Part shown: positions 5,427 to 43,992 of the stretch, piece after piece
Numbering within the stretch: position 1 is the stretch's first letter
Layout of the letters: the number at the start of each line of letters is the position of its first letter
Assembly (NCBI GenBank): GCA_965246965.1
Contig: CBDFGD010000002.1
Location: 1,612,890 to 1,676,889 of the forward strand
DNA from: Vicinamibacteria bacterium
Lineage (GTDB): Bacteria > Acidobacteriota > Vicinamibacteria > Fen-336 > CBDFGD01
Direction: 5' to 3'
DNA: 64,000 nucleotides
Made by a program: the position numbers and the translations under genes
The notes under the pieces: model-generated
What the model was told of the DNA's origin: nothing
Seen by the model: only the letters and a program-made list of their open reading frames with translations
Databases searched by the model: none

Positions 5427-5458
5427 CCAAGGGCAGCGGTTACCACCGCTGCCCTTGG
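5427..5458. terminator. Perfect 13-bp stem hairpin (CCAAGGGCAGCGG-TTACCA-CCGCTGCCCTTGG) 39 nt after the amidohydrolase stop
   Basis: Perfect inverted repeat read directly from the sequence. It is not followed by a U-tract, so it is a putative rho-dependent or structural terminator. Confidence 0.45.
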
Positions 5459-5478
5459 TATCACATTCACCAAAGAGG
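5456..5478 (+). repeat. 23-bp direct repeat copy 1 (TGGTATCACATTCACCAAAGAGG)
   Basis: Identical 23-mer to 5544-5566. Relatively AT-rich. It overlaps the 3' arm of the hairpin and lies in the intergenic region upstream of the SGNH hydrolase gene. Confidence 0.6.
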
Positions 5479-5543
5479 CCTGCCCTACGCGGCACCACTC
5501 GCTCAGGCTGAACAGATCGCATCGTTCGCCGGCACCGCGCTCC

Positions 5544-5566
5544 TGGTATCACATTCACCAAAGAGG
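5544..5566 (+). repeat. 23-bp direct repeat copy 2 (TGGTATCACATTCACCAAAGAGG)
   Basis: Perfect copy 88 bp downstream of copy 1 and about 55 bp upstream of the start at 5620. It is a candidate regulator-binding or promoter element. Confidence 0.6.
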
Positions 5567-5619
5567 GCCACTCGTCGCGACAGCTCTGGCTTGGGCCGGA
5601 CGAGCCGAGTGTGTGAGGC

Positions 5620-10589: not shown

Positions 10590-10884
10590 CTGCGCTCGCC
10601 TCGGCCAGCGAGGTGAGATCTCTCCTCTGGTATCGAGTGAAGAGGAGCAGACGGATTCTTCGCTCCAGGCGGAGACGAGCGGTCTCTCAGAATGGCGAGG
10701 GGACGAACTTTCGATCGGGCCAACGGCGATTGACGGATCGTCTCCTCGTCATCCTGAGGCCGGGTCAGTCCCGCACGAGCCGAAGGATCCGCCGGCGAGG
10801 TGATGTGGCCGCCTGCGCTCCTGGGGAACGAGGAGCGGACGGATTCTTCGCTCCAAGCCGAGACGAGCGGTCGCTCAGAGTGAC
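10590..10884. repeat. Intergenic ~190-bp repeat family, locus A (about two tandem copies; inverse orientation relative to locus B)
   Basis: The reverse complement of 10646-10695 and of 10835-10884 matches the 5' ends of the locus B units (GTCATTCTGAGCGACCG…CGAAGAATCCGTCTGC). The internal segment …CTCCTCGTCATCCTGAGGCCGGGTCAG… is also shared. Confidence 0.7.
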
Positions 10885-26614: not shown

Positions 26615-26650
26615 GGAGGCGCAGAGACTCGGAGAACGGCCAAGGCGGCG

Positions 26651-27060
26651 TCATTGTGAGATTCCGACTCCGCAGCGTCATTCTGAGTGAGCGCTAGTCC
26701 CCGCTTGGAGGGAAGAATCCGTCTGCTCCTCTTCACTCGATCGTCAGCCGTTTCCACAAAGAGGGGCGGGCGGATCCTTCGGCCCGACCACGACTGACCC
26801 GGACTCAGGATGACGAGGAGTCGATCCGTCAATCGCCATCGCCGCCATCGAAAGCTTCGTCCCCTCGTCATTCTGAGCGACCGATCGTCTCCGCCTGGAG
26901 CGAAGAATCCGTCTGCCCTTCCTCACTTAATCGTCAGCCGTTTCCACAGAGAGGAGCTGGCGGATCCCTCGGCCCGGCCACGACTGAGCCGGCCTCAGGA
27001 TGACGAGGAGTCGATACCGTCGATCGCCGTCGACTTCATCGAAGTTGTGGCGCGTCTGCT
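26651..27060. repeat. Intergenic ~190-bp repeat family, locus B (two tandem units 26677-26866 and 26867-~27060, plus a partial upstream copy)
   Basis: The two units share a GTCATTCTGAGYGAVCG… start, an …AAGAATCCGTCTGC… segment, …CGTCAGCCGTTTCCACA… and …CTCAGGATGACGAGGAGTCGAT…. Its reverse complement is at locus A. Confidence 0.75.
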
Positions 27061-30246: not shown

Positions 30247-30984
30247 ATGGGCGAGTTTTTCCAAGCGGCCTTCGCCTTCCCCACCGTGGTTCTCACGGCG
30301 CTGATGGGGCTGGTGCTCGCCTACTGGCTGGTCTTCATGATGGGGATGGCCGACCTGGACATCCTCGGCTCCGGCGACGCGATAGGCGGAGCGGGTGAAG
30401 AAGCGGCTGAGGCCGCAGTCGAGGCGGTCGCGGGGGATGGCGGCGGGGTCGATGGGCTGGACGGTGGTGAAGGCGGTTGGCTGGAGAGGCTCCGCAACGC
30501 CGGGCTGACCCAGGTCCCCATCACGCTGACGTTGAGCATCCTCATCTTCTTCTCCTGGACGCTCAGCCTGCTCGGCGTCCGGCTGCTCCAGCGCTTCGGC
30601 ATCGCCGCGGAGAGTGCCGACGGACCGGGGCCCGTGTGGGCGTCGGTCATTCTCGTGGCGGCTCTGTTCGGCGGCGCGCTGGCCACCCTCGCCTCGCTGA
30701 ACCCGCTGCGCCCGCTGTTCGTGCGCCACGACGCGCCTTCGCGCGCCAGCTTCGTCGGCACCGAGTGCACGATCTTCTCCCAGAGAGTCGACGCCAGCTT
30801 CGGCCTCGCCGAGATCGAGGACGGCGGCGCCGGATTGCGTGTCGACGTCCGCTGCCTCGAGGCGACCCTGAAACGCGGCGACAAGGCGCGAGTCGTCCGC
30901 TGCGACGAAGACGTCGAGGTCTTCTTCGTCCGCGCGCTCGAGGCCGCATCGAACGAGTCCCCCTCAACACCAACAAACAAGTGA
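30247..30984 (+). CDS. YqiJ-like inner-membrane protein with NfeD-type C-terminal OB-fold
   Basis: Two transmembrane hairpins separated by a Gly/Asp/Ala-rich loop, then a C-terminal beta-rich domain. Position immediately upstream of a flotillin gene matches the yqiJ-yqiK/nfeD-floT arrangement. Confidence 0.55.
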   Translation: MGEFFQAAFAFPTVVLTALMGLVLAYWLVFMMGMADLDILGSGDAIGGAGEEAAEAAVEAVAGDGGGVDGLDGGEGGWLERLRNAGLTQVPITLTLSILIFFSWTLSLLGVRLLQRFGIAAESADGPGPVWASVILVAALFGGALATLASLNPLRPLFVRHDAPSRASFVGTECTIFSQRVDASFGLAEIEDGGAGLRVDVRCLEATLKRGDKARVVRCDEDVEVFFVRALEAASNESPSTPTNK

Positions 30985-30991
30985 GGTCACC

Positions 30992-33010
30992 ATGTCGGGA
31001 TTGATACTAGGTCCGATCTTCGCCGGCGCGATCATCCTGCTCGGCCTGCTCGGCAGCCTGGCTCGCTTCTACAAGAAGGTCGAGCAGGGCAAGGCGCTCG
31101 TCGTCAACCGGCTGCGCCCCGACCAGCTGGACGTGACCTTCACGGGCACCTACGTCCTGCCGATCATCCACAAAGCCGAGCTGATGGACATCTCGGTCAA
31201 GACGCTCGAGATCGATCGCCGGGCCGAAGACGGCCTGATCTGCCAGGACAACATCCGTGCCGACATCAAGGTGACGTTCTTCGTCCGCGTCAACAAATCG
31301 AAGAACGACGTGATCAAGGTCGCCCAGTCGATCGGCTGCAAGCGGGCGTCGGACAAGGTGACGCTCGACGAGCTGTTCAGCGCCAAGTTCTCCGAGGCGC
31401 TCAAGACGGTCGGCAAGCAGCTCGACTTCGTCGACCTCTACACCAAGCGCGAGGAGTTCCGCGACCAGATCATCGGCGTCATCGGCCGCGACCTGAACGG
31501 CTACTTCCTCGAGGATTGCGCGATCGACTACCTGGAGCAGACGCCGCTCAAGGCTCTCGACCCGAACAACATCCTCGACGCCCAGGGGATCCACAAGATC
31601 ACCCAGCTGACCGCCTCCGAGCACGTCTCTACGAACGAGTGGCAGAACGACGAGCAGAAGAAGATCCGCAAGCAGGACGTCGAGGCGACCGAGGCGATCC
31701 TCGAGCTGAATCGTCAGCAGGCGGACGCCGAGGCCAAGCAGCAGCGCGAGATCCAGAGCGTCCGCGCCCGCGAGGAGGCCGAGACCCGCAAGATCCAGTC
31801 CGAGGAGCGGCTCAAGGCCGAGAACGCCCGCATCAAGGCCGACGAGGAGATCGCGATCAACGAGGAGAACATGCGCCGCCAGGTCGAGGTCGCGCAGAAG
31901 AACCGCGAGCGCGTCATCGGCGTCGAAACCGAGCGTGTCGAGAAGGACCGGCACCTGGAGCAGATCTCGCGCGAACGCGAGACGGAGCTGCAGACCATAG
32001 AGAAGGATAAGGAGGTCGAAAAGGAGAAGCGCGAGATCGCCAACGTGATCCGCGAGCGCATCGCCGTCGAGAAGACCGTCGCCGAGCAGGAGGAGGCGAT
32101 CAAGCGCGTGCGCGTCGTGGAGGAGGCCGAGCGCCTCAGGGAGGCGGCGGTCATCACGGCATCAGCGGAGGCCGAGGAGCTGCTGATCAAGGACATCAAG
32201 GCCGCCGAGGCGGCCGAGAAGGCGGCCAAACACCGGGCGCAGGAGCAGATCACGCTCGCCGATGCCGATCTCGAGGCGTCGGACCGGACCGCTCGCGCCA
32301 AGATCCGCCTCGCCGAAGGCGTGCAGGCCGAGGAGGCGGCGAGCGGTCTCGCCACTGTGAAGGTCAAGGAAGCCGACGCGATCGCCGTCGAGAAGCTGGG
32401 CCGCGCCGAGGCGATTGTCACGCGCGACAAGGGCGACGCCGAGGCCGAGGTGATCCGCAAGACGGGCCTCTCCGAGGCGGAGGCACTGCGCGAGAAGCTG
32501 CTCGGCGAAGCCGCGGGTCTGACCGAAAAGGCCACCGCGATGAAGGAGTTCGACGACGCTACCCGGGAGCACGAGGAGTTCCGCCTCGATATCGAGAACA
32601 AGCGAGTGCTGACGCTGGAAGAGATCCAGGCCCGCAAGGAGGTCGCCGAGGCGACGGCGAAGGTCCTCGCCACGGCGCTCAAGGAGGCCCGCATCGACAT
32701 CGTCGGCGGCGAGAGCATGTTCGTCGATCGCCTCGTCAGCGCGATCTCGATGGGCAAGGCGGCCGACGGCTTCGTGGATCGTTCCGACAAGACCCAGGCC
32801 CTGCTCGGGGAGTACCTCGACGGGCGCACGAGCCTGCCCAGCGAGGTGAAGGGAGCGCTCGAGGCCGTTGCCGCGAGCAGCGCCAGGGGCGTCACCCTCG
32901 GCGCGCTGCTCGGCAAGCTCGCCGAGCAGACCAGTGGACGCGACAAGACCGCGCTGCGCTCTCTGCTCGACAAGGTCAAGGAGCTCAAGCTGGACACACT
33001 CGGGACCTAG
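30992..33010 (+). CDS. Flotillin-family SPFH/band-7 protein (YqiK-like) with long coiled-coil
   Basis: N-terminal transmembrane helix, an SPFH domain and an extended E/A/K/R-rich coiled-coil with Ala-Glu-Ala repeats. 672 aa. Confidence 0.8.
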   Translation: MSGLILGPIFAGAIILLGLLGSLARFYKKVEQGKALVVNRLRPDQLDVTFTGTYVLPIIHKAELMDISVKTLEIDRRAEDGLICQDNIRADIKVTFFVRVNKSKNDVIKVAQSIGCKRASDKVTLDELFSAKFSEALKTVGKQLDFVDLYTKREEFRDQIIGVIGRDLNGYFLEDCAIDYLEQTPLKALDPNNILDAQGIHKITQLTASEHVSTNEWQNDEQKKIRKQDVEATEAILELNRQQADAEAKQQREIQSVRAREEAETRKIQSEERLKAENARIKADEEIAINEENMRRQVEVAQKNRERVIGVETERVEKDRHLEQISRERETELQTIEKDKEVEKEKREIANVIRERIAVEKTVAEQEEAIKRVRVVEEAERLREAAVITASAEAEELLIKDIKAAEAAEKAAKHRAQEQITLADADLEASDRTARAKIRLAEGVQAEEAASGLATVKVKEADAIAVEKLGRAEAIVTRDKGDAEAEVIRKTGLSEAEALREKLLGEAAGLTEKATAMKEFDDATREHEEFRLDIENKRVLTLEEIQARKEVAEATAKVLATALKEARIDIVGGESMFVDRLVSAISMGKAADGFVDRSDKTQALLGEYLDGRTSLPSEVKGALEAVAASSARGVTLGALLGKLAEQTSGRDKTALRSLLDKVKELKLDTLGT

Positions 33011-33034
33011 CCGCTCCTCCGCGAGAGCCATCGA

Positions 33035-36000
33035 GTGGCGGATCAAGAGCAGACCGAGCCGCAAGCGAGCCCGGAGATCGAACGCGGGGCCTACGAGGTC
33101 ATCCGCGAGCGACTCGTCGCGCGTGCGAAGGAGCTTCAGCAGAAGACGGACTCCCTCAACGAGCGCCGCGTCGAGCTGTTTGGTCGCACGGAGTTCGAGC
33201 TGCTCGGGACGGAGCGCCTGCGCACGGCGAACAACTGTGTGCCGCGGGACGTGGTGCAGGTGGGGGGTCGCCTGCTGTTCGGCTACAACGTGCACATCGG
33301 CCTGCGCACGGAGACGCGCGTGGACGACGTCTTCTCATTGCACCGCTTCGAGGCGGAGGAGAACGGCTTTCGCTTCGAGGAGATCCAGCAGGGACCGGAG
33401 CGAGCGTTCCTCGACGACGAGGCGTTCGTCCGGGACTTCAAAGAGCTGTACCAGTACTACAAGTCGGCGAGGCTGCTGCAGCTGCGCCAGCTCGAGACGA
33501 AGCTGCTCGCCGCGTTCCAGATCGGCGCCCAGCTCAGCGACATCAAAGTGTTCCGTTGGGACGTCGATGGGGATGGGCTCGCCAGCTACCGCGACAACCG
33601 CGGCGAGCGCGACCACGCCTTCCCCGCCCCCCACGACTTCGAGTGGACCCAGACGACCCGCGAGAACCACGTCCAGGGTCGCTTCCCACACGTCTCGATC
33701 CTCGACGAGGTCTTCGTCGAGACCGTCGGCGGCGACCTCACGATCAAGATCGAGAACAACACCGATGCTGGCCTCGGAATATATGCCGAGCCGGTCGAGG
33801 ACGAGCGCCAGTCTCTCGATGACGCCGAGATCCACTACGCCAAGGTCGGCCCCCTCATCATTATTAAGGTGCTTCCCTACCGGGAGCGCGAGTTCCGCTA
33901 CTTCGTCTTCAACACGCTGACACACGGCGTCGAACGGATCGACGCGATCGGCCAGGCGTGTCTCCAACTCCCCGAGGATCATGGCCTCGTCTTCCCCGGC
34001 GGCTACTACCTGCGCTCGGGCCACAAGAAGCTCTTCGACGGCGACTGGACCAGCCTCGAGTTCCAGCGGCAGGTCCGGGCGCCGAACGGCGAGGACGTGC
34101 TCTACGTGTTCCACGAGCGCGCTGAGGGGCGCTCCGTCCTGCTCCCCTACAACCTGATCCGCAAGGAGGTCCGCAACCCCGTCCCTTGTCACGGCTTCAG
34201 TCGCTTCGCCGACGGGCGCATGGTCGTGCTGCGCGCGCAATCGGAAGAGCCGACGCGGGTTCACCCGATGCAGACGTGGCAGACGCCATTCTGCAGCGAG
34301 GAGCACGCGGCCGAGGCACCGGAGGTGGAAGGCGACCTCGGCAAGATCGGCAACACCGAGCTGGTGCGCGGGATCTCCGAAGCTCTCAGCCTCGTGCGCA
34401 TGACGAATGACGTCGAGCCGACGCGCGAGGTCTACGAGGAGCTGATCTCGACGGCACAGCGGATGCTCGACGCGTACTACTGGCTGGACTCGCCCGACGC
34501 CTCGGGCATGAACGAGAGCGTCGAGTCGATTCGCGAGACGGCCGAGAAGGTCATCGACGAGTTCGAGAAGGTCGAGGCGATCCGCCGCTCGACGCGGGGG
34601 CGCGTCGCCGAAGCCGCCGGCAACGTCCAGGAGCTGCTTCGGACTCTCGACCCTGAGGCGTGGAAGAGCGTGCCGCCCTTCGTCGACGCGCTCGTCGAGC
34701 TGCGCCGTCAGCGCGGCATGGTCATCACGCTGCGCGACCTTCGCTACGTCGACCGGGCGGCGCTCGATGGCCTCGAGGCACGCGTCGTGGAGGCGTTCGA
34801 CAAAGTGGCCGCCGGGGCGACCGACTTCCTCGCCACCGAGGAGGCTCTCCAGCCCTATCACGCCGAGATCGCCGCGCTCGAGGAGGCGAGCGAGGCCGTC
34901 GCCACCGTCCATGAGCTGCAGCCTCAGCTCGAAGGGCTGAATGACCTCGCCGGCAAGCTGGATGCGCTCTCGGAGATCGTGACCGGCATCGAGATCGACG
35001 ACGCTACGGTGCGCACGCGCATCCTCGAGGGGATCTCCGAGGTGCTGGGCGGCCTCAACCGCGCTCGCGCCGTCGTCGAGGGGCGCCGCAAGCAGCTGCG
35101 CTCGGGTGAGGCGGTCGCGGAGTTCGGCGTGCAGTTCCAGCTCTTCAGCCAGAGCGTCACGAGCGCCCTGGCCATGGCCGATTCGCCCGAGCGCTGCGAC
35201 GAGCAGCTCTCGCGCCTGATGCTGCAGCTCGAGGAGCTGGAAGGGCGCTTCGGCGAGTTCGACGACTTTCTGCTCCAGCTTCAGACGAAACGGGAGGAGG
35301 TCTACGAAGCCGTCAGCTCCAAGAAGCAGCTGCTGCTGGACCAGCGCCAGCGTCGTAGCGACGCCCTCGTCGAGGCCGCCGAACGGATTCTCTCGAGCAT
35401 CACGCGGCGCACGGCCGGGATCGCCAGCGACGACGAGCTGGCCGCCTACTTCGCCGGCGACGCGATGGTCGCAAAGCTGCGCGACCTGGTCGAGAAGCTG
35501 CGCGCTCTCGGCGCGGCCGTGCGAGCCGACGAGCTCGAGGCCCGGCTCAAGGCAACGCGTACAGACGCGTCCCGATCGCTGCGCGACCGCGAGGATCTCT
35601 ACGAGGAGGGAGCGGAGGTCATCCGTCTCGGCAAGCACCGCTTCGCCGTCAACACCCGCCGCCTCGACCTGACCCTCGTCCCCCGCGGCGACGGCATGTC
35701 CCTGCATCTCACCGGGACCGAGTTCTACGAGCCGTTCGACGACCCGGAGTTCGAGAAGACGAAGGATCTATGGAGCCAGGAGCTGGTGTCGGAGACGACC
35801 GACGTCTATCGCGGCGAATACCTGGCCGCCGAGATCCTCGCCGCCGCAGAGGAAGAGCGCGACGGCTTGACGTTGTCCCTGTTGCTCGAGAAGTCACACG
35901 ACAAAGCCTCCGGCGAGCTGCTCGAGCTGGTTCGCAAGTACGCTTCGGAGCGATACGACGAGGGGTACGAGCGCGGCGTTCACGACGCCGACACCGCACT

Positions 36001-38533
36001 CATCCTCCAGAAGCTGCTCGGCATCTACGCCACGGCCGACCTGCTGCGCTTCGCGCCCCGTCCCCGCGCGTTCGCCTCTCTCTTCTGGTCGCAGCTGGGC
36101 GACCGTACGCTGCGTGAGTCGTGGCAACGGCGGGCGCGTAGCCTCGGACGGATGCGCGCGAGCTTCGCGCACAGCCCGGCGATCGATGCCTTCACGCTGG
36201 AGCTGGCGCGGGCCATCGGCGCGTTCTGTGAAGAGCGTGCCATCGCGCTCGACCCGCAGGACACACGCGTGGCCGGCTCCTACCTGTTCGAGGAGTTGGG
36301 GCGCGACCCCATGCGCTTCACCGTCAGCGCGGAGGCCGTGCAGCTGCGCGACGCCTTCTTCGAGCAGCTGGCGGCCGACGGCTCGCGCCGCGAGCTCGAG
36401 CACGACATCCGAGAACTGCAGGGAGACCTGAAGAACCTCTACTCCCTGGTCGAGGCCTGGGTGGCCGCCTTCGTCGACCGAACGGAGCGGCCGGAGATCG
36501 CCGATTTCCGGCCGGCGCTCGAAGGCGCGGCGGTGCTCATCGTCGCCGACGAGCGCCTCGATCGCGACACGTCGAGCGCGTTGCCGAAGGTGTCCGTCGC
36601 CGGCCTGCTCGGCCATCACGGTCGGATCAACGATCGCAGCCTCTCGTTGCGACTGGACGAGTTCCTCTCGCGTCTCGGTCGCTTCCGACACGAGCGCGTC
36701 CCGGCATTCCGGGCTTTCCAGGAGCTGCGCCACTCGCTGCTCGAGCGCGAGCGCCGCCGCCTCCGGATCACCGAGTTCGAGCCCCGCGTGATGAGCTCGT
36801 TCGTCAGGAACCGGCTGATCGACGAGGTGTATCTACCGATCATCGGAGACAACCTCGCCAAGCAGATTGGCGCCACAGGCGAGGGCAAGCGTACCGACCT
36901 GATGGGACTGCTGCTCCTGATCTCACCGCCGGGCTATGGCAAGACCACGCTGATGGAGTACATCGCCAATCGGCTGGGCATGGTCTTCATGAAGATCAAC
37001 GGGCCGGCCCTCGGCCACTCCGTCACCTCCCTCGACCCCGCCGCCGCGGGCAACGCAACCGCGCGCCAGGAGGTCGACAAGATCAACCTCGCCCTCGAGA
37101 TGGGCAGCAACGTCCTGCTCTACCTCGACGACATTCAACACACGCACCCGGAGCTGCTGCAGAAGTTCATCTCGCTGTGCGACGCGCAGCGCCGCATCGA
37201 AGGCGTGTGGAGGGACCACACGCGCACCTACGACCTGAAGGGCAAGCGCTTCTACGTGTGCATGGCCGGCAACCCGTACACCGAGTCAGGCGAGAAGTTC
37301 CAGATCCCCGACATGCTCGCCAACCGTGCCGACGTCTACAACCTCGGCGAGGTGCTCGAGGGGAAGGACGACCTCTTCGCGTTGAGCTACCTCGAGAACG
37401 CCCTCACATCGAGCGCGACACTGGCGCCCCTGACGACGCGAGATCACGACGACATCCACAAGCTGGTCGGCCTCGCGAAGAACGACGGGACGACGCCCGA
37501 CCAGCTCTCCCACCCCTACTCGGCACCCGAGCTGGAGGAGATCGTCTCCGTGCTCCGCAAGCTGATGAGCGTTCAGGAAGTCGTGCTGACGGTGAATCGT
37601 CAGTACATCCTCTCGGCATCGCAGGAAGACGCTTTCCGCACCGAGCCCCGCTTCCAGCTTCAGGGCAGCTACCGCAACATGAACAAGCTCGCCGAGAAGA
37701 CCGTCGCGGTGATGAACGATGACGAGCTGGAAGCGCTCGTTGACGACCACTACCTCGGAGAGTCGCAGACGCTGACGACGGGCGCCGAACACAACCTGCT
37801 CAAGCTGGCCGAGCTGCGGGGCCGGATGAGCGACGAGCAGAAACTGCGCTGGACCGAGATCAAGCGCACCTACGCCCGCATCCAGACGACCGGGGGCGAC
37901 GACGATCCGGTGACGCGGGTGACGGGTCAGCTCGGCCTCATGTCCGATCGTCTGGCAGACATCGCGGCGCGCATCGCGACGGCAGTGACGGACGGAGGGA
38001 GCGCGGCGGGAAGGCAGGACCTGGGAGCATCGCTGCTCCCCGTCCTCGAGAAGATGCAGCAGGCCGGCGTGGGCACGCCGCGCGAGACGGGCCTCAGCCC
38101 CGAGGCCGTCTCGGTCATCACGACGCACCTCGGTGAGCTGTCAGCCAAGCTCGGCGCGATCGGCGCGGCGATCGACGACGCCGCCAGCCGAGCACCCGCC
38201 GCGGCCGAAGCCGAGGCGCCGCTGCAGCCCTACCTCGACAAGCTGCAAGATGCCGTCGAAGCGATGTCGGCCAAGGGCGGCACGCGCCGCGAGGTGATTC
38301 AGACCCTGCCCGGCGGCGTCGGCGACCTGCTCGACGATCTGGCTCAGCAGGTCTCGGACTCGGTGATGCCGGCCCTACGGGGCATCTCGCGTCGCATCGA
38401 GGGCTCGGACGACAAGGTCGACCGCCGCGCCCGCACCGAAATCTCCAAGGCCCTCAAGCAGCTCGACCAGCTTCGCGATCTCGCCGGTGCGCTGCGGCGG
38501 CTGGACACCCGCGGCATCGGGGAGGAAAGCTAG
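33035..38533 (+). CDS. Giant (1832-aa) AAA+/P-loop ATPase-containing protein of unknown function, co-operonic with flotillin
   Basis: Walker A …LLISPPGYGKTTL… at about 36925-36950 and Walker B …VLLYLDDIQH… at about 37117-37143. Long predicted coiled-coil/helical regions. About 450-aa N-terminal and about 350-aa C-terminal regions carry no recognisable motif. Only 25 bp separate it from the flotillin stop. Confidence 0.7.
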   Translation: MADQEQTEPQASPEIERGAYEVIRERLVARAKELQQKTDSLNERRVELFGRTEFELLGTERLRTANNCVPRDVVQVGGRLLFGYNVHIGLRTETRVDDVFSLHRFEAEENGFRFEEIQQGPERAFLDDEAFVRDFKELYQYYKSARLLQLRQLETKLLAAFQIGAQLSDIKVFRWDVDGDGLASYRDNRGERDHAFPAPHDFEWTQTTRENHVQGRFPHVSILDEVFVETVGGDLTIKIENNTDAGLGIYAEPVEDERQSLDDAEIHYAKVGPLIIIKVLPYREREFRYFVFNTLTHGVERIDAIGQACLQLPEDHGLVFPGGYYLRSGHKKLFDGDWTSLEFQRQVRAPNGEDVLYVFHERAEGRSVLLPYNLIRKEVRNPVPCHGFSRFADGRMVVLRAQSEEPTRVHPMQTWQTPFCSEEHAAEAPEVEGDLGKIGNTELVRGISEALSLVRMTNDVEPTREVYEELISTAQRMLDAYYWLDSPDASGMNESVESIRETAEKVIDEFEKVEAIRRSTRGRVAEAAGNVQELLRTLDPEAWKSVPPFVDALVELRRQRGMVITLRDLRYVDRAALDGLEARVVEAFDKVAAGATDFLATEEALQPYHAEIAALEEASEAVATVHELQPQLEGLNDLAGKLDALSEIVTGIEIDDATVRTRILEGISEVLGGLNRARAVVEGRRKQLRSGEAVAEFGVQFQLFSQSVTSALAMADSPERCDEQLSRLMLQLEELEGRFGEFDDFLLQLQTKREEVYEAVSSKKQLLLDQRQRRSDALVEAAERILSSITRRTAGIASDDELAAYFAGDAMVAKLRDLVEKLRALGAAVRADELEARLKATRTDASRSLRDREDLYEEGAEVIRLGKHRFAVNTRRLDLTLVPRGDGMSLHLTGTEFYEPFDDPEFEKTKDLWSQELVSETTDVYRGEYLAAEILAAAEEERDGLTLSLLLEKSHDKASGELLELVRKYASERYDEGYERGVHDADTALILQKLLGIYATADLLRFAPRPRAFASLFWSQLGDRTLRESWQRRARSLGRMRASFAHSPAIDAFTLELARAIGAFCEERAIALDPQDTRVAGSYLFEELGRDPMRFTVSAEAVQLRDAFFEQLAADGSRRELEHDIRELQGDLKNLYSLVEAWVAAFVDRTERPEIADFRPALEGAAVLIVADERLDRDTSSALPKVSVAGLLGHHGRINDRSLSLRLDEFLSRLGRFRHERVPAFRAFQELRHSLLERERRRLRITEFEPRVMSSFVRNRLIDEVYLPIIGDNLAKQIGATGEGKRTDLMGLLLLISPPGYGKTTLMEYIANRLGMVFMKINGPALGHSVTSLDPAAAGNATARQEVDKINLALEMGSNVLLYLDDIQHTHPELLQKFISLCDAQRRIEGVWRDHTRTYDLKGKRFYVCMAGNPYTESGEKFQIPDMLANRADVYNLGEVLEGKDDLFALSYLENALTSSATLAPLTTRDHDDIHKLVGLAKNDGTTPDQLSHPYSAPELEEIVSVLRKLMSVQEVVLTVNRQYILSASQEDAFRTEPRFQLQGSYRNMNKLAEKTVAVMNDDELEALVDDHYLGESQTLTTGAEHNLLKLAELRGRMSDEQKLRWTEIKRTYARIQTTGGDDDPVTRVTGQLGLMSDRLADIAARIATAVTDGGSAAGRQDLGASLLPVLEKMQQAGVGTPRETGLSPEAVSVITTHLGELSAKLGAIGAAIDDAASRAPAAAEAEAPLQPYLDKLQDAVEAMSAKGGTRREVIQTLPGGVGDLLDDLAQQVSDSVMPALRGISRRIEGSDDKVDRRARTEISKALKQLDQLRDLAGALRRLDTRGIGEES

Positions 38534-38534
38534 C
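38291..38534 (+). repeat. 244-bp direct repeat copy 1 = native 3' end (last 77 codons plus stop) of the giant gene
   Basis: Aligns base-for-base with 40791-41034 at about 93% identity. Confidence 0.85.
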
Positions 38535-38558
38535 CGCCGCAGCAGTGCCGACCGGGGA

Positions 38559-39152
38559 TCAGAAAAGGCGGCAGCTCTTCATCACCATCTTGGTGATGCC
38601 TCTACCGTCGGTCGCGCGGGAATCGGACGGGTACTCAGTCTGGCCGGCGAAGTGCAGCGCTTCGTGAATCAGGATGATTGCGGCCCGTTTGTCGGACAGC
38701 CGGGCGAAGCGCGGGCACAGACCGACTGCCGAGCTTCCCACCGTCGTGACAGCGAGGCTGCCGCGACGGCAGTGCCTTCTCCGGTGTCTGGCGCCGGCGG
38801 GGTAGTACGAGCTGCTGTTGAGCTTCGCCTCGCCATCGACGCCGAAGCTCGCGACCAACGCTCGACAGGAAGGATTGTCGCGGAGGTGCTGCAATGCAAC
38901 CGGAATCGCAGTGTCGAGCCTGCTTGCGATGCCTGGTGACAGGCCCGGGTGCAGGACGGGTCCTTGCGCCGGAGTACCACTCGTGACCGCTGGCGGGCAC
39001 GAACGGCTCTCCAGAGAAGCGCGCTCCGAGGCGCCCTTCTCGACCGCCATCGCCCCCGGTTCTCCCGAGCCGGGATCCTGTTCAGACCCATAGACGACGG
39101 AAGCGACGATGACCGTCGTGAAGACGAGCGTCGAAGGACGATACGCCGACAT
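38559..39152 (-). CDS. Small secreted/membrane-anchored HExxH protein (putative zinc metallopeptidase)
   Basis: N-terminal hydrophobic segment and an ILIHEALHFAG motif near the C-terminus. 197 aa. Located inside the cassette bounded by the 244-bp repeats. Confidence 0.4.
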   Translation of the reverse strand: MSAYRPSTLVFTTVIVASVVYGSEQDPGSGEPGAMAVEKGASERASLESRSCPPAVTSGTPAQGPVLHPGLSPGIASRLDTAIPVALQHLRDNPSCRALVASFGVDGEAKLNSSSYYPAGARHRRRHCRRGSLAVTTVGSSAVGLCPRFARLSDKRAAIILIHEALHFAGQTEYPSDSRATDGRGITKMVMKSCRLF

Positions 39153-39574
39153 GCGAACACCCGAATCGCCCCCCGCGGCACGTCCACTCTCGCGTTCAAG
39201 CTCTCCGACTCGAACACGCCCTCTTGCTTAGTTAGTCACTTGGACGTCGGCGCGCGGGGTAAGGTTCGCGCGAAGTGCCGTTCACTTTCATTCTGCATGT
39301 TTTGCCACTTCGATAGTTCAAGCCCTCACACGAGTGCATGAGGATTGAACCGCAGATGCTCAATCTTTGAAACTAGTTGGCCATCGCCGAACGCAATCGT
39401 TCGCGGCCACGATCACGCAGATCAAACCATTCAATGAGTGGAACAACTCGGACGACACGGATGGTGAGACCGCGATCTCAGCGATGGCGCGCCTGACATC
39501 AGTGAGTGCGACGTCCAGGATCGCTGCCGCGGCGATGGAGACTACCGCGCCTCCCGACCAGCCCGATCACGCCG

Positions 39575-39778
39575 TCAGAAGATGGCGCCGACCTTCACGC
39601 GAACCCAGCGGACGTTCCTGTCCTGAAGGCAGTAGCAGGTGGCGGGCCCCTGGATCTCCCCGTCGATCCAACCGACCTCTTTCAGTACCTTGAGCTGCTG
39701 AGAGACGGTCGCCTGCGCTATGGCCCGGTGCTCGACCACATCCCGTGTGGCTGTTTCACTGCCTTCCCGCGTCAGCAC
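39575..39778 (-). pseudogene. ArsR/SmtB-family HTH regulator fragment (N-terminally truncated)
   Basis: …AIAQATVSQQLKVLKEVGWI…ATCYCL matches the ArsR recognition helix and wing. The N-terminal helices are missing. 67 codons. Confidence 0.45.
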
Positions 39779-39832
39779 GCATCGAGTAGTTGTTCGAATG
39801 GAGGAATCCGGCTGGCGGTCGCGCTCATCGCT

Positions 39833-40687
39833 GTGGCCGATCTCGCGCGGCTCGGGTTCGAGCGACGGCGCGGCTCGCCCGGCCTGATTCGGGCGGCAGC
39901 GTGGTATCTGACCGCAGCCGTGACCACTGCCCTGCTGTACCTATCTCAGGCCGGCTACGTGATGCACTATCTCGGTACCGGAAACCTGGCGGGGCGGCAC
40001 TTCCTGAAGCTGTCTGCCAGGTTCGCGTGGCAGCTGGCGGCGCGCTGGACGGTGGGCGACAACTGGGTCACCGTACCGGTTCTGCTCGCCTTTCTCGCGG
40101 GCGTCATCGCGATCCTGACTCGCCAGCGCGACGCGTACGCCCTTGCCAGGGCGCCTGACGAGCGGGGCTACCGACTGGCTCGGCTGGCCCGCCGCGAGGA
40201 GCGCCTGGAGGCCCTGTCATCTAGGCTCTCCCCGGCCGCGACGCTGCTCCGCTTCGATTTCGCCTACCAACCCGCCGGCCTGCTGATCTGGTTCGTCGCG
40301 CCGTTTCTGCCTTTCGTTGTGATTCCGTTCAGCAAGTTCTTCGATATCCGGTTCGTCATCGCCGCGCTGCCACCGTTCCTGTTGGTGAGCGCAACGGGCC
40401 TCGTCCACCTGGGACGGTGGGCGGCGGGCCTGGCTTCAACGCGCCAAGCGGACGCGAGGCGTCAGTCGTTGCTCCGTGTCGGGGTCCCAGCGCTGTTGAG
40501 CCTGGTGATCGTGTGCGCCAGCTCGCGGTCTTACATCGTGTTTCGAAGCACGGACTATCGGTGCAGCGACTTCTTCGCGCAGCCAGAACTCCTGTCCCGA
40601 AACGACGGCTTTTGCCGCGACCACATAATCCTCAACACGATCTACTCAGAGCACCGCTTCTTGCTGCGTCCGGCCCGTAACCCCTGA
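39833..40687 (+). CDS. Hypothetical polytopic membrane protein (start uncertain)
   Basis: At least 6 strongly hydrophobic helices. No confident start codon. The open frame overlaps the ArsR fragment in antisense, so the start must lie after 39778. Confidence 0.3.
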   Translation: MADLARLGFERRRGSPGLIRAAAWYLTAAVTTALLYLSQAGYVMHYLGTGNLAGRHFLKLSARFAWQLAARWTVGDNWVTVPVLLAFLAGVIAILTRQRDAYALARAPDERGYRLARLARREERLEALSSRLSPAATLLRFDFAYQPAGLLIWFVAPFLPFVVIPFSKFFDIRFVIAALPPFLLVSATGLVHLGRWAAGLASTRQADARRQSLLRVGVPALLSLVIVCASSRSYIVFRSTDYRCSDFFAQPELLSRNDGFCRDHIILNTIYSEHRFLLRPARNP

Positions 40688-40790
40688 GGAGCGACGCTCG
40701 AGCTCGTTCCCAGTGCCGACCACAACGACGTCGTGGGCGCCGTGGAACCCGGCTACAGCCGGCTCGCTCGGCTACGAATGTAGAGAGCAG

Positions 40791-41034
40791 GAGGTGATTC
40801 AGACGTTGCCGGGTGGCGTCGGCGACCTACTCGACGACCTCGCCCAGCAGGTCTCGGACTCGGTGATGCCGGCCCTGCGCGGCATCTCGCGTCGCATCGA
40901 GGGCTCGGACGACAAGGTCGACCGCCGCGCCCGCACCGAAATCTCCAAGGCGCTCAAGCAGCTCGACCAGCTTCGCGATCTCGCCGGCGCGCTGCGGCGT
41001 CTGGACACGCGAAGGATCGGCGAGGAAAGCTAGC
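40791..41034 (+). pseudogene. Orphan copy of the giant-gene 3' end (repeat copy 2), embedded in ORF 40713-41033
   Basis: About 18 nt differences from copy 1 but only 1 amino-acid difference (G to R) over 77 codons. Homology starts abruptly at GAGGTGATTCAGAC. Confidence 0.7.
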
Positions 41035-41394
41035 GGGCGAACCTCGTAGCGACTGCGTCGAGTCGAGTTGACGCCGCTACGCCGCCCGAGAATCGGGGGG
41101 CCGCTCATCTAGTTGCCGTTTCTCGAGCGGACGGTGTGGGTCGTCGGTGACGACGCCGTCATAGCGGCGGCGAGTGGGTCGTTCTACCGCGACGGCGAGC
41201 TACTGGCGCCGGAGGCGTACGGTGGACGGCTGGCCGAAGCCGAACAGCTGATGAGACTGTTCACCAGGCGTTAGCGGCAGGGGTCTCGTCGGGCGCGGCT
41301 GGCCTGCCAGCCGGCCGCGTATCGTCCTCGCGATCCCAGGAAGACATCGCTCTATCCGACTCCTCGAGGTTTTCTAAGCTTGTATCGCCGATCA

Positions 41395-41796
41395 CTACCC
41401 GAAGCGCGAGTGGACCAGGATCGTAACGCTGGCGCTGGCAACCGCGCGATTCGCCTTGTGCAGGATCAGGCGAACGCGGTGGTTGCCGGCGTGCCGGTAC
41501 ACGTGATACGCCGTGAAGTGGCGCTGCAGCTGATCCCCGGGCTCGAAGGGTGGACAGTCGGACTCGACGGCGCTGCGGCTGCCATCTCCCCAGTCCCAGA
41601 CGAGCCCCGGGCAGTAGTACTCCTCGAGGTCGTCGCCACCCTCCAGCTCTGCCACGACGAAAACGTCGATGGGCGAGAACGCCACCCGTCGCGCCGTTCT
41701 GAGGCTGAGGCGCGGTTCGTCCGCGTCGGCATCGCTGCCAGCCGTCGAGGGTAACAGGAGGGCGAGTCCCACAAGCATGCTCACCGCGGACCTCAT
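41395..41796 (-). CDS. Hypothetical small secreted protein
   Basis: Signal peptide and a 133-aa Cys-containing Asp/Glu-rich domain. No recognisable family. Confidence 0.3.
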   Translation of the reverse strand: MRSAVSMLVGLALLLPSTAGSDADADEPRLSLRTARRVAFSPIDVFVVAELEGGDDLEEYYCPGLVWDWGDGSRSAVESDCPPFEPGDQLQRHFTAYHVYRHAGNHRVRLILHKANRAVASASVTILVHSRFG

Positions 41797-42334
41797 GCAA
41801 CCCCCTCTCGCCGCCTCGCACGGCCATCATCCGGTCGTTCCTTCTTGCGCGAATCACATCGGCAATCCGCGATCGGCGGGAATCGCCGGTGTCGATCTCC
41901 CGCCCAATCGTTGTAAGTGCAATACGCATTCCCCGGGCCGAAAGGCCGTGAGCCGGATCACCCGGCTCAGTGATCAAGCTGCTTTCTGCCTCAGGGGGAA
42001 GGAGTTAGGCCGGCAAGGATGTGGTGCTACGGCCTCGGGAATCGCGGGCCTCCGCCGGCGGCACGACAGCCTCGGTGTCGAATGACCTCAAACCGGTCAA
42101 CTTGTGTCGTGCCGATGCTGAAGATCGCTTCGTAAAGCGGACCCGGTTTTCTTGGACACGAAACTAGGGAAAGTCATCTTGTTCAAGGAGACTCGATCGA
42201 TGAAGCAGGTCAGGCGCAAGAGGTCTGAGAGGAAGAAGGGGGTGGGCGAGACGGAGGGAGCCCGGAGGGCGACCGGAGTTTCGCCCACCGGCGGCGCGGT
42301 GGTGGGCGCCTTGGGTCCCGGGCAGCGTTGAAGC

Positions 42335-42613
42335 GTGGTGCGCAAGCGGGAGGTCGCACTGCGGCTGCTGCGCGGGGAGTCACTCGAAGCGCTGTCTCGT
42401 GAGCTGTCCGTGGAGATGCACCGGCTGCAGCGCTGGCGTGATCAAGCCATGGCCGGGATCGACGAGTCGCTGCGGGAGCGCAATGGCGACCCGCTGAAGG
42501 TGGAGCTGGACGCGGCGGTCAAGCGGGTGGGCGAGCTCAGCATGGAGAACGAGCTGTTGCGGAAGAAGATCGGGGCGGCCCGCCCTTTGGCCTTCGGGAG
42601 GTCGCGGCGATGA
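42335..42613 (+). CDS. IS3-family transposase OrfA (HTH / leucine-zipper)
   Basis: 92-aa basic protein with an HTH-like N-terminus and a leucine-zipper-like heptad C-terminus. GTG start. Confidence 0.7.
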   Translation: MVRKREVALRLLRGESLEALSRELSVEMHRLQRWRDQAMAGIDESLRERNGDPLKVELDAAVKRVGELSMENELLRKKIGAARPLAFGRSRR

Positions 42614-43503
42614 GTGCGGCGATCTCCCCTGCGACAGGCCGGGCCTACGGGGTGGAGCGGGTGTGCCGGGTGTGGAAGCTGGCCCGCTCGAGCTACTACT
42701 CCCAGCTCGGCGAGGCGGCTCCCGAGATGGTCCGCGCTGGCCGACGTGGTCCCAAGCCCAAGGTGTCTGACGAGGAGCTGTTGCGGCTGATCCGAGAGGA
42801 CCTGGCGGCCTCGCCGTTCGTAGGAGAAGGACATCGCAAGGTCTGGGCGCGGCTCAAGGTGCTGCGCCAGGTGCGCGTGTCGCGCAAGCGGGTGCTGCGG
42901 ATCATGCGTGAGCACCACCTGCTGTCGCCGCGTCGGGTACGCCAGGGCGAGGGGCTGCTCCACGAGGGGACGATCACAACCGATGCGCCCAACCTGATGT
43001 GGGGGACGGACGGGGCGAGAGTTCTCACGGCAAAGGACGGCTGGGGCTGGATCTTCGTCGGCGTCGAGCACTTCAACAGCGAGTGCGTCGGCTACCACGT
43101 GTGCAAGAAGGGGACGCGCTACGAGGCCCTCCAGCCCATCGCCATGGGGCTGACGCAGCTCTTCGGCTCGGTCGAGGCGGGTGTGGCTCGTGGCCTCGAG
43201 CTGCGCATGGACCACGGGACGCAGTACCTCTCGGACCACTTCCTCAACCAGCTGCGTTTCTGGGGCATCACGCCCAGCTTCGCCTTCGTCGAACAGCCGC
43301 AGACCAACGGAGTGGCCGAGCGTTTCATCCGGACTCTCAAGGAACAGATCATTCATGGCCGCGTCTTCCACACCCTCGAGGAGGTGCGCCAGGCCGTGGC
43401 TGCCTTCGTCAAGCGCTACAACCAGCAGTGGCGCGTCGAGAAGCTGGGATTCCTCACCCCGCGCGAGGCCCGCGACCAGCACGGCCAGGGAAAGGCCGCG
43501 TGA
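42610..43503 (+). CDS. IS3-family transposase OrfB (rve integrase core, DDE)
   Basis: Integrase-core motifs (…WGTD…, …HGTQY…, …NGVAERF…). -1 frame relative to orfA with a 4-nt overlap. Confidence 0.8.
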   Translation: MSAAISPATGRAYGVERVCRVWKLARSSYYSQLGEAAPEMVRAGRRGPKPKVSDEELLRLIREDLAASPFVGEGHRKVWARLKVLRQVRVSRKRVLRIMREHHLLSPRRVRQGEGLLHEGTITTDAPNLMWGTDGARVLTAKDGWGWIFVGVEHFNSECVGYHVCKKGTRYEALQPIAMGLTQLFGSVEAGVARGLELRMDHGTQYLSDHFLNQLRFWGITPSFAFVEQPQTNGVAERFIRTLKEQIIHGRVFHTLEEVRQAVAAFVKRYNQQWRVEKLGFLTPREARDQHGQGKAA

Positions 43504-43992
43504 ACCTCGAGGTCATCAAAGAGGGGCTACCCCAGGTATGGACTCACCCCGCCGCGTCGATCCTGGGGCATCCTCGTGCGTCGTTTTCGGGATCGTCTGC
43601 CAAACGAACCCGAGATCGTCAAACTGGTGTCCAAGAAACCGGGCGTGGTACATGAAGATCGCTTCGCGCTGCCGCGTGGAGGGGGGAGGCCCGGGCATGC
43701 GCGTCAATCCGCATCCGCACCTCCACCCCCTCGTTCCTCCGCGTCCCCTACGTGGATCCGGCTGTCGCGCAGCGCATCTTCCAGCACAAAATCCTCGCTC
43801 TACTCGAGCGCGAGGCACGGATCACGCCCGAGCGTTTCGCGCGACGGGAGCACCTGCGGTCTGCGGGCATTCCTCCCGAATCATGCGGAGCTTCCTCCCG
43901 GTGAGCGCCGACTGCGCTCCCTTGCTGAGACGCGCAAGCTCGGCGCGGCCCGGCACGCGTCTTGGAGGAAGCGTGGTCCGAGGGAGGAGGAC

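What the first reader, a model, noticed from the sequence alone, without database searches (positions are those of the whole stretch)
38291..41034. 3' end of the giant gene duplicated 2.25 kb downstream with a purifying-selection signature; cassette of HExxH protein, ArsR fragment and membrane protein in between
The last 244 bp of the giant gene (77 codons, the stop and TAGC) recur at 40791-41034. The two copies differ at about 18 nucleotides but encode a single amino-acid change (G to R). Almost all differences are synonymous third-position changes. So the downstream copy is not a recent sloppy duplication. It looks like the 3' end of a diverged allele or paralog that evolved under protein-level constraint. 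Homology starts abruptly at GAGGTGATTCAGAC and ends 4 nt after the stop. This points to a precise recombination or integration junction. The intervening 2.25 kb carries a small HExxH protein, a truncated ArsR regulator and a membrane protein. There is no integrase. This is the pattern expected for cassette exchange at the 3' end of a gene, as with 3'-end-targeting islands or displaced orphan C-terminal modules in polymorphic loci. It would make the giant gene's C-terminus a hotspot for horizontally exchanged DNA.
Basis: seen in the sequence. Interest (0 to 1): 0.75.

Follow-up and report, generated by a model that had tools for sequence, protein, structure and literature searches.

The report
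Displaced gene tail flanking inserted DNA
The last 80 codons of a giant ATPase gene are present twice, 2.5 kb apart, because foreign DNA carrying its own version of the gene's end was inserted there and pushed the other version downstream as an orphan fragment; this scar resembles the E. coli e14/icd case and is of modest interest.

Summary
Window 38291-38534 (the last 80 codons, the stop and one further base C of a 1832-aa DUF3686/AAA+ gene) recurs at 40791-41034, exactly 2500 nt downstream. Both edges are sharp. The copies differ at 18 coding nucleotides: 16 synonymous codons and one Gly>Arg codon (dS 0.32, dN 0.0085, omega 0.03; P<1e-5 by randomisation). So one copy diverged inside a working gene of a related lineage.

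The 2256-nt insert has lower GC and poorer codon usage than its flanks. It holds one intact gene, a secreted HExxH zincin-like protein, plus two 5'-truncated genes: an ArsR-type regulator and a PMT_2/ArnT-like glycosyltransferase. It has no recombinase.

Downstream of copy B lie relics of an IS91-family transposase, cut by an IS3. The nearest relative found has an IS91 transposase in the matching position after its gene. Copy B plus its right flank therefore looks like the older arrangement.

My best reading (about 0.4) is a decayed integrative element that brought a replacement 3' end, as e14 does with icd/icdC. Import by homologous recombination is nearly as likely (about 0.3). None of 80 homologous loci has a duplicated tail, which gives no support to a recurrent hotspot. 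The polymorphic orphan-module analogy fails. No close relatives were found, so an empty site could not be checked.

The parts
30247..30984 (+). 245-aa gene, first gene of the conserved three-gene unit that ends with the giant gene
   Evidence: tblastn finds it upstream of the giant-gene homologue in 53 of 80 genome loci. No Pfam or NCBIfam hit.
30992..33010 (+). 672-aa flotillin-like gene, conserved partner just upstream of the giant gene
   Evidence: Found in 65 of 80 loci at 57-67% identity. Weak FloT match, NF058507, E 6.5e-6.
33035..38533 (+). Giant gene, 1832 aa, DUF3686 + DUF7902 + AAA+ ATPase (databases call it 'DNA repair ATPase'). It is intact, and its last 80 codons are copy A.
   Evidence: Pfam PF12458 E 1.2e-209, PF25472 E 6.7e-28, AAA at residues 1293-1418. 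GC3 is 0.89.
38291..38534 (+). Copy A of the tail (80 codons, the stop and one further base C), attached to the gene. This is the attL-like repeat.
   Evidence: EVIQTLP opens a C-terminal block that is conserved across the subfamily.
38559..39152 (-). Intact 197-aa secreted HExxH (zincin-like) protein gene. It is convergent with the giant gene, and the two stop codons are 25 nt apart.
   Evidence: 474 representative homologues, aligned over the full length. Invariant HEALH, four invariant Cys and an N-terminal signal-like segment. AF2 pLDDT 85.8. Weak fold matches to deuterolysin, abylysin and selecase. GC3 0.76.
39575..39811 (-). 5'-truncated ArsR/SmtB-type regulator fragment
   Evidence: NF033788 E 8.5e-9, matching profile positions 23-76 of 77. 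HTH_5 E 3e-4. The frame stays open up to the junction with the next fragment.
39812..40687 (+). 5'-truncated PMT_2/ArnT-like membrane glycosyltransferase fragment (about 290 of about 460 residues)
   Evidence: Homologues P0122-P0127 are 450-462 aa, and two of them carry PF13231. Nucleotide homology to L081 begins at window 39812, which is nt 547 of that 1383-nt gene. In relatives this gene is followed by a DUF2975-SpoIIE gene and is never next to a giant gene.
40688..40790 (.). 103-nt spacer of unknown origin between the glycosyltransferase stop codon and copy B
   Evidence: No similarity to any fetched locus.
40791..41034 (+). Copy B of the tail, an orphan 3' fragment with no 5' gene. This is the attR-like repeat. 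It lies inside a 106-aa ORF (40713-41033) whose first 26 codons are unrelated sequence.
   Evidence: The ORF is on record from the source contig as P0129.
41311..41355 (+). Possible N-terminal relic of an IS91-family transposase (YRPRxPRxTxLY), about 280 nt after the copy-B stop
   Evidence: tblastn against the L087 transposase, 10 of 15 identical, E 0.16. This is weak on its own. It is collinear with the stronger relic at 43694-43871 and with the L087 arrangement.
41395..41796 (-). 133-aa gene with a signal-like N-terminus and no known family
   Evidence: GC3 0.84. No Pfam or NCBIfam hit. Singleton cluster.
42133..43651 (+). IS3-family insertion sequence (orfA 42335-42613, orfB 42610-43503)
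   Evidence: HTH_Tnp_1, rve, rve_3 and HTH_21 hits. Terminal inverted repeats 42143-42159 and 43627-43643. 14-nt flanking direct repeats. Many variants of this transposase sit on the same 5.1-Mb contig.
43694..43871 (+). Frameshifted relic of an IS91-family (Y2_Tnp) transposase
   Evidence: tblastn against the L087 transposase, residues 172-241, E 3.4e-10. The L087 protein is Zn_Tnp_IS91 + Y2_Tnp.

Best explanation
This is the scar of an insertion into the 3' end of the giant gene by DNA that carried its own version of the gene's last 80 codons. I think the most likely agent was an integrative element of the e14/phage-21 type.

Proposed steps:
1. The element recombined site-specifically at the left edge of the repeat. 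The 14 nt GAGGTGATTCAGAC are identical in both copies, and the start of the repeat encodes the conserved motif EVIQTLP.
2. The element's own tail (copy A) was fused to the resident gene, so the ORF stayed intact.
3. The resident tail (copy B) was pushed to the far side of the insert, where it survives as an untranslated orphan next to the original downstream DNA (IS91 relics).
4. The element then decayed. The integrase and most of the cargo were deleted. What remains is one intact gene for a secreted HExxH protein and two 5'-truncated genes that abut each other at about 39780-39812.

Shown by tool results: the duplication, its sharp edges, the synonymous-only divergence, the intact gene alongside an orphan fragment, the foreign composition and fragmentary content of the insert, and the absence of a recombinase.

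Inferred: that a site-specific recombinase did the insertion, which copy was the resident one, and that deletions followed.
For: 1. Direct repeats made of the target gene's 3' end flank the insert. The proximal copy completes the gene and the distal copy is an orphan.
2. The repeat ends one base after the stop codon, and the downstream sequences are unrelated rather than merely diverged: 12-13/30 identity straight away, whereas about 75% would be expected for neutral DNA at dS 0.32. That fits an element that carries only the coding part needed to restore the gene.
3. dS 0.32 with omega 0.03, and the single replacement falls at a position that varies across the family. So the two tails diverged inside functional genes of related lineages.
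4. The insert is compositionally deviant: GC 0.58-0.65, GC3 0.76-0.82, codon score -1.0 to -1.14 against -0.66 to -0.89 for core genes.
5. The glycosyltransferase and ArsR genes are both 5'-truncated and abut each other. This is a deletion or rearrangement scar, as expected in a decayed element.
6. Copy B is followed by IS91-transposase relics at about the distance and on the same strand as the IS91 transposase that follows the gene in the nearest relative, L087. Copy B plus its right flank therefore looks like the older arrangement.
7. The precedent is documented. e14 sits in icd, supplies the 3' end, and leaves a 163-bp icdC pseudogene at its other end with conservative or synonymous differences (PMC13626634, PMC6379469).
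8. The region is rich in mobile DNA: an IS3, IS91 relics and two IS1182 copies.
Against: - No tyrosine or serine recombinase, or recognisable relic of one, lies in the 2256-nt insert or in any ORF I scanned between 23 and 63 kb of the window, which is not every ORF there.
- At 2.25 kb the insert is very small for a former island.
- No other DUF3686 locus among 80 shows a duplicated tail within 10 kb. No phage, plasmid or viral contig carries the tail or the cassette. So no element with this target specificity is attested anywhere.
- The 14 identical bases at the left edge match the mean run length expected at 7.5% divergence, so they are not evidence of a core site.
- No close relative was found (best 60-74% amino-acid identity), so an empty site could not be examined.
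Confidence: 0.4

Rival explanations
1. Import by homologous recombination without a site-specific recombinase. DNA from a related lineage (about 7.5% nucleotide divergence across the tail) carried the donor's giant-gene end plus the donor's downstream genes. It entered in one of two ways. Either a small circle integrated by a single Campbell-type crossover within the tail, or a linear fragment was anchored by homology inside the giant gene and its other end joined illegitimately at GAGGTG. Both routes duplicate the tail.
For: This explains the same repeat, the sharp edges and the synonymous divergence, and it needs no missing integrase. Differences between the copies cluster at both ends: codons 19-69 have 4 against 10.8 expected, scan P about 0.025. 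That would fit recombination or gene conversion acting within the repeat. From my own knowledge, the duplicated 3'-CS that flanks ISCR1 regions in complex class 1 integrons is a precedent for circle-plus-homology insertion.
Against: Ordinary homologous replacement does not duplicate the anchor. The Campbell route needs a 2.5-kb circle made of a gene tail plus gene fragments, with no replicon or transposase to account for it. The anchored route needs the illegitimate end to land inside the anchor region. It also requires a donor, only dS 0.32 away, whose synteny breaks exactly one base after the stop codon.
Confidence: 0.3
2. Copy B is the last remnant of a second, once full-length paralogue (or a second copy of the operon) that lay downstream. 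Everything in that copy upstream of codon 1753 was later deleted or overwritten by the cassette.
For: A paralogue kept functional for a long time would also give synonymous-only divergence.
Against: No other trace of the giant gene or its two partner genes exists in the 64-kb window. None of 80 homologous loci has a tandem second copy within 10 kb. The sequence after the two stop codons is unrelated from the first bases on, although a duplicated unit at dS 0.32 should still align. Copy B's right flank resembles the single-copy arrangement of the nearest relative.
Confidence: 0.1
3. Assembly chimera. Two co-existing strains with different tails and different downstream regions were stitched into one path.
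For: The source is evidently a metagenome-type assembly of an uncultured lineage, since the closest hits are MAGs. Reads are not available here. The round spacing of 2500 nt is odd.
Against: The junction at 40790/40791 has no shared sequence on which an assembler could have switched paths. The contig is 5.1 Mb and resolves many near-identical IS3 copies, which implies long reads that would span 2.5 kb with ease (inference). The possible gene-conversion pattern between the copies suggests they coexist physically (weak).
Confidence: 0.04
4. Copy B is kept because it is expressed as a stand-alone small protein, about 75-106 aa, consisting of the conserved C-terminal module. Its synonymous-only divergence would then reflect selection acting on it in place.
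For: An open frame runs 40713-41033. The junction creates AGGAGGTGAT, and the synonymous CTG>TTG change puts a possible TTG start 11 nt after AGGAGG (read from the sequence).
Against: No promoter-like site was found, and the DNA upstream is a truncated gene. No free-standing tail-only ORFs stood out among the homologues found, although most of those hits were contig-end fragments of unknown full length. Divergence before the insertion explains the pattern more simply.
Confidence: 0.05

Closest known systems
Cryptic prophage e14 (and phage 21) in the icd gene of E. coli K-12, with the icdC pseudogene
   Same: The element sits in the 3' end of a protein-coding gene and supplies a replacement 3' end, so the gene stays functional. 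The displaced native 3' end (163 bp) remains as an orphan pseudogene at the far end of the element. The two versions differ by synonymous and conservative changes and act as attL and attR (PMC13626634, PMC6379469).
   Different: e14 is 15 kb and has its own integrase and excisionase, and its excision has been shown experimentally. Here the insert is 2.25 kb and has no recombinase, no phage genes and no evidence of excision. The target gene (DUF3686 ATPase) and the host lineage are different, and the repeat is longer (244 nt).
Integrase-less remnants of integrative elements flanked by att repeats, for example CIMEs derived from ICESt1/ICESt3 at the 3' end of fda in Streptococcus thermophilus (own knowledge, not checked here)
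   Same: A short insert at the 3' end of a protein-coding gene, bounded by direct repeats, that has lost its recombination module.
   Different: The att repeats of those elements are short (tens of bp) and identical. Their relationship to intact ICEs is documented, whereas no intact sister element is known here.
Duplicated 3'-conserved segment around ISCR1 regions in complex class 1 integrons: a rolling-circle transposition circle integrated by homologous recombination (own knowledge)
   Same: A block of foreign DNA flanked by a direct duplication of the homologous segment used for integration. IS91-family relics are present at this locus.
   Different: There the IS91-like element lies between the repeats. 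Here the IS91 relics lie outside them, beyond copy B, so the gene order does not fit this model.
Orphan C-terminal modules downstream of polymorphic toxin genes (rhs, cdiA)
   Same: A 3' fragment of a large gene lies downstream of the full-length gene and shares a stretch of homology with it.
   Different: In those loci the shared stretch is followed by a different toxin domain and a matching immunity gene. Here the two copies encode the same 80 residues apart from one, end at the same stop codon, and have no immunity-like partner.

Membership tests
Integrative element inserted in the 3' end of a protein-coding gene, carrying a replacement 3' end (e14/icd type) | Direct repeats made of the target gene's 3' end flank the insert | tested here: met
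   38291-38534 and 40791-41034, 92% identical, with sharp edges
Integrative element inserted in the 3' end of a protein-coding gene, carrying a replacement 3' end (e14/icd type) | The target ORF stays intact through the proximal copy, and the distal copy is an orphan fragment | tested here: met
   The 1832-aa ORF is complete with all its domains. Copy B has no gene body upstream.
Integrative element inserted in the 3' end of a protein-coding gene, carrying a replacement 3' end (e14/icd type) | The copies differ mainly by synonymous or conservative changes | tested here: met
   16 synonymous codons and 1 replacement; omega 0.027; randomisation P<1e-5
Integrative element inserted in the 3' end of a protein-coding gene, carrying a replacement 3' end (e14/icd type) | A site-specific recombinase (integrase) is encoded in the insert next to an att site | tested here: not met
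   No integrase domain in any ORF or frame tested within 38535-40790. None in the ORFs scanned further right. The only rve protein belongs to a separate IS3 outside the repeats.
Integrative element inserted in the 3' end of a protein-coding gene, carrying a replacement 3' end (e14/icd type) | The insert is of foreign origin (composition, mobile-element genes) | tested here: inconclusive
   Lower GC and GC3 and a poorer codon score, but no mobile-element genes inside, and no match in phages, plasmids or viral contigs
Integrative element inserted in the 3' end of a protein-coding gene, carrying a replacement 3' end (e14/icd type) | An empty site exists in related genomes, or excision can be detected | not testable with these tools
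   No relative closer than about 60-74% amino-acid identity in the genome, metagenome or protein collections. No reads are available.
Polymorphic toxin locus with orphan C-terminal modules (rhs/cdiA type) | The orphan carries a different C-terminal domain after the shared stretch, followed by a cognate immunity gene | tested here: not met
   The copies are colinear to the same stop codon with one residue different. No toxin, immunity or defence family hit.
Campbell-type integration of a circular replicon or rolling-circle transposition unit | A replicon or transposase function lies between the duplicated homologous segments | tested here: not met
   The insert holds only the HExxH gene and two gene fragments. 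The IS91 relics lie outside the repeats.
Tandem paralogues of the DUF3686 gene | A second gene body, or relics of one, lies upstream of the downstream tail | tested here: not met
   No further giant-gene similarity in the window. No tandem copy in 80 homologous loci.
DUF3686 'DNA repair ATPase' family (the giant gene itself) | N-terminal DUF3686 domain plus a central AAA+ module, in a unit with a flotillin-like gene | tested here: met
   PF12458 E 1.2e-209 over 448/448 profile positions, plus AAA hits. The upstream partner genes are conserved in 53-65 of 80 loci.

The most novel reading that the evidence does not exclude
The 2.5-kb unit (tail plus cassette) could be a non-autonomous 'homing' cassette. 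It would carry a copy of the conserved C-terminal module of a widespread host gene and use that homology, not a recombinase of its own, to enter and leave the 3' end of the gene in related genomes. The orphan tail would serve as the substrate for reversible loop-out, or would be expressed as a free C-terminal module.
Probability: 0.08. Interest if true: 0.6.

Novelty: new member of a known kind. Interest (0 to 1): 0.3.

Why it matters
This is a clean example, from an uncultured high-GC lineage (best hits are Acidobacteriota-type MAGs), of a general rule. DNA that inserts into the end of a gene can keep that gene working by bringing a substitute end, and the synonymous-only divergence of the leftover fragment dates and labels the event.

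It has three practical uses:
- It marks 38291-40790 as acquired DNA, and 41035 onward as the older downstream region.
- It warns annotators that the 106-aa ORF at 40713-41033 is probably a pseudogene fragment.
- It shows that the 244-nt repeats could loop out the insert by ordinary recombination.

It says nothing new about what the DUF3686 ATPase does, and it does not reveal a new mobility mechanism.

Tried and rejected
1. Close relatives, to look for an empty or occupied site. I ran a genome-contig scan (best 53-74%), two metagenome scans (nothing) and three protein searches (best 66% and 60-63%). The protein tool never returned proteins longer than about 900 aa. Exact look-ups of the window's own proteins returned no DNA.
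2. Tail duplication or tandem paralogues in 80 homologous loci: none.
3. Conservation of the cassette genes next to other giant genes: none.
4. Context of the glycosyltransferase homologues. They are always followed by DUF2975-SpoIIE and are never near a DUF3686 gene. The 103-nt spacer matches nothing.
5. Phage, plasmid and viral-contig searches for the tail or cassette: nothing.
6. Known defence systems: only trivial P-loop hits.
7. Codon-usage test of which tail is native: uninformative (sum of log ratios -2.0 and -0.9).
8. DNA-level orthology between copy B's downstream flank and L087's: not significant (score 29 against a shuffle maximum of 35).
9. Integrase relics in small ORFs and other frames of the insert: none.
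10. An IS91 one-ended transposition model in which copy B was carried in by the IS. I rejected it because landing 2.25 kb from the homologous gene by chance has odds of about 1e-3, and the homologous-integration version of the model predicts the wrong gene order.
11. The idea that the repeat was planted or is not in the real record. I rejected it because the copy-B ORF is on record from the source contig.

Full report
**Observation.** The window holds one long direct repeat, 38291-38539 versus 40791-41039. It is 92% identical, and the start-to-start spacing is exactly 2500 nt. The pairwise alignment shows 18 nucleotide differences in the coding part. Sixteen codons carry one synonymous change each, and one codon changes GGC to AGG, Gly to Arg. 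Identity is 26-30 per 30-nt block inside the repeat. It drops to 8-15 per 30, the random level, in every block on both sides. Nei-Gojobori counting gives dS 0.319, dN 0.0085 and omega 0.027. In 100,000 random placements of the same 18 substitutions, on average 12.1 codons changed amino acid and never fewer than four. The single replacement falls at a position that varies across the family (G, R, A, E, S). The factual core of the finding is therefore confirmed: one of the two tails diverged while it was part of a working gene.

**Not an artefact of the data set.** The 106-aa ORF that contains copy B, the giant protein, the glycosyltransferase fragment and the neighbouring genes are all on record from a single 5,117,661-bp NCBI/ENA contig. 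That contig also carries many near-identical IS3 transposase variants, which implies a long-read-quality assembly (inference). The junction at 40790/40791 offers no shared sequence on which an assembler could switch paths. I rate an assembly chimera at about 4%, but only reads can exclude it.

**The gene.** The 1832-aa protein has a full-length DUF3686 domain (E 1e-209), DUF7902 and an AAA+ module. Databases label it 'DNA repair ATPase'. Two upstream genes, of 245 aa and a flotillin-like 672 aa, are conserved with it in 53-65 of 80 genome loci. Nothing downstream is conserved. The duplicated 80 residues form a C-terminal block that is always terminal in homologues. It begins with the conserved motif (E/Q)V(I/V)QTL and shares 31-44% identity with most relatives and 69% with the nearest one found, P0001.

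**The insert (38535-40790, 2256 nt).**
- A 197-aa gene lies on the minus strand at 38559-39152. Its stop codon is only 25 nt from the giant gene's stop. It is intact and belongs to a real but uncharacterised family with 474 representatives. Members have a signal-like N-terminus, four invariant Cys and an invariant HEALH motif followed by a Glu. A confident model (pLDDT 85.8) gives weak fold matches to small zincins: deuterolysin, abylysin and selecase.
- An ArsR/SmtB-type fragment lies at 39575-39811 on the minus strand. It lacks roughly the first 20 residues of the domain.
- A PMT_2/ArnT-like glycosyltransferase fragment lies at 39812-40687 on the plus strand. Homology to its 450-462-aa relatives begins at nt 547 of 1383, so about 180 N-terminal residues are missing. 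In relatives this gene is followed by a DUF2975-SpoIIE gene and is never next to a DUF3686 gene.
- A 103-nt spacer of unknown origin follows.

GC falls to 0.58-0.65 in the insert. GC3 is 0.76-0.82 against 0.88-0.93 in neighbouring core genes, and codon adaptation is poorer. The 'cassette' is thus one live gene plus two truncated genes that abut head to head, which is what a decayed or rearranged patch of acquired DNA looks like. It holds no recombinase, and no relic of one was found.

**Beyond copy B.** The stretch from 41035 to about 43990 is a mobile-element graveyard. It holds an IS3-family element at about 42133-43651. A frameshifted relic of an IS91-family transposase lies at 43694-43871 (E 3e-10), and a weak N-terminal match lies at 41311-41355. 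In the nearest relative available (L087, 72% nucleotide identity over the gene's 3' end), an IS91-family transposase (Zn_Tnp_IS91 + Y2_Tnp) starts 198 nt after the giant gene's stop on the same strand. Copy B plus its right flank therefore reproduces that relative's arrangement, whereas copy A is followed by unrelated DNA. This suggests, but does not prove, that copy B marks the older downstream context. Two identical inverted IS1182 copies lie further right. No integrase was found in the ORFs scanned from 47 to 63 kb.

**Mechanism.** Every workable model has the same outline. A 2500-nt block was added at the gene's end, and that block carried a homologous tail from a lineage about 7.5% diverged at the nucleotide level. 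The models differ in the enzyme involved.

The model I favour (about 0.4) is a decayed integrative element of the e14/phage-21 type. e14 sits in icd, provides the last codons of the gene, and leaves a 163-bp icdC pseudogene at its other end with synonymous and conservative differences (PMC13626634, PMC6379469). Four features fit it:
- the gene stays intact;
- the repeat stops one base after the stop codon, where the sequences become unrelated rather than merely diverged;
- the repeat starts in the most conserved motif of the tail;
- the insert is foreign in composition and fragmentary in content.

Against it, no integrase is present, the insert is very small, and no element with this specificity is attested anywhere. 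None of 80 DUF3686 loci has a duplicated tail, and there are no matches in phages, plasmids or viral contigs.

Import by homologous recombination is nearly as good (about 0.3). It could be a Campbell-type crossover of a small circle, or homology-facilitated illegitimate recombination. It needs no missing integrase, but it requires an unusual substrate or an unusual second junction. A mild clustering of the differences at both ends of the repeat (scan P about 0.025) hints at recombination or gene conversion within the repeat.

A deleted second paralogue (about 0.1) is disfavoured. There is no other gene relic, no tandem copy in other genomes, and the flanks are unrelated from the first bases on. 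I considered and rejected an IS91 one-ended transposition origin for copy B, because it predicts either a chance landing with odds of about 1e-3 or the wrong gene order.

A 3'-end-targeting island is my leading model too. The analogy with orphan C-terminal modules of polymorphic loci fails, because the copies encode the same peptide and no partner gene follows. The hotspot idea has little support. Downstream neighbours of the gene are simply unconserved (90 Pfam families in 132 ORFs from 70 loci), and only two of the closer relatives have a transposase just after the gene (L087 IS91; L002 IS200).

**Novelty and interest.** This is a new instance of a known kind of scar, in a new gene and lineage, with an unresolved enzyme. 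It would become more interesting only if the integrase-less 2.5-kb unit proved to be mobile through its carried homology, or if the orphan tail proved to be expressed. I give those readings together about 8%. Overall interest is 0.3.

Noticed in passing
window 42119-43665: An IS3-family element (orfA/orfB with overlapping reading frames, imperfect terminal inverted repeats) is flanked by a 14-nt direct repeat, TGAAGATCGCTTCG. That is much longer than the 3-5-bp target duplications usual for IS3. The same transposase occurs in many variants on the source contig.
   Followed up: partly
window 41311-41355 and 43694-43871; L087 1290-2036: Relics of an IS91-family (rolling-circle) transposase lie downstream of copy B. 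The nearest relative has an IS91-family transposase 198 nt after the stop of its giant gene. The association is either old or recurrent.
   Followed up: partly
window 45751-47273 and 57204-58727: Two inverted copies of an IS1182-family element (99-100% identical arms) bracket about 10 kb that carries PIG-L, DoxX, DUF1501 and DUF1800 genes. The layout is that of a composite transposon.
   Followed up: partly
window 10632-10931 and 26603-27015: A family of 60-190-nt repeats (79-92% identical) occurs in direct and inverted orientation at two intergenic sites 16 kb apart. It looks like a MITE or REP-like element. A separate 63-nt direct repeat lies at 5451-5513 and 5539-5601.
   Followed up: no
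window 38559-39152 (minus strand): The HExxH protein belongs to a sizeable family with no Pfam or NCBIfam model (474 representative homologues). Members are small secreted proteins with four invariant cysteines and the motif HEALHxAGxxE. The predicted fold is weakly zincin-like.
   Followed up: partly
window 38285-38290 and 38535-38540: The hexamer CGCCGC lies immediately before and immediately after copy A. The empirical chance is about 5e-4 per comparison in this window. No model I tried accounts for it, and it may be coincidence.
   Followed up: partly
window 38291-38530 vs 40791-41030: Differences between the copies cluster at both ends. Codons 19-69 carry 4 against 10.8 expected (scan P about 0.025). 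This may reflect gene conversion between the copies or uneven synonymous constraint.
   Followed up: partly
window 60406-62768 (minus strand): A TonB-dependent receptor appears split into two overlapping ORFs, plug/CarboxypepD_reg at 61557-62768 and beta-barrel at 60406-61560. This may be a frameshift or a pseudogene.
   Followed up: no
window 30247-38533: The three-gene unit (245-aa protein, flotillin-like 672-aa protein, DUF3686/AAA+ giant) is conserved across Acidobacteriota, Myxococcota, Actinomycetota and others. No paper in the searched library mentions DUF3686.
   Followed up: partly
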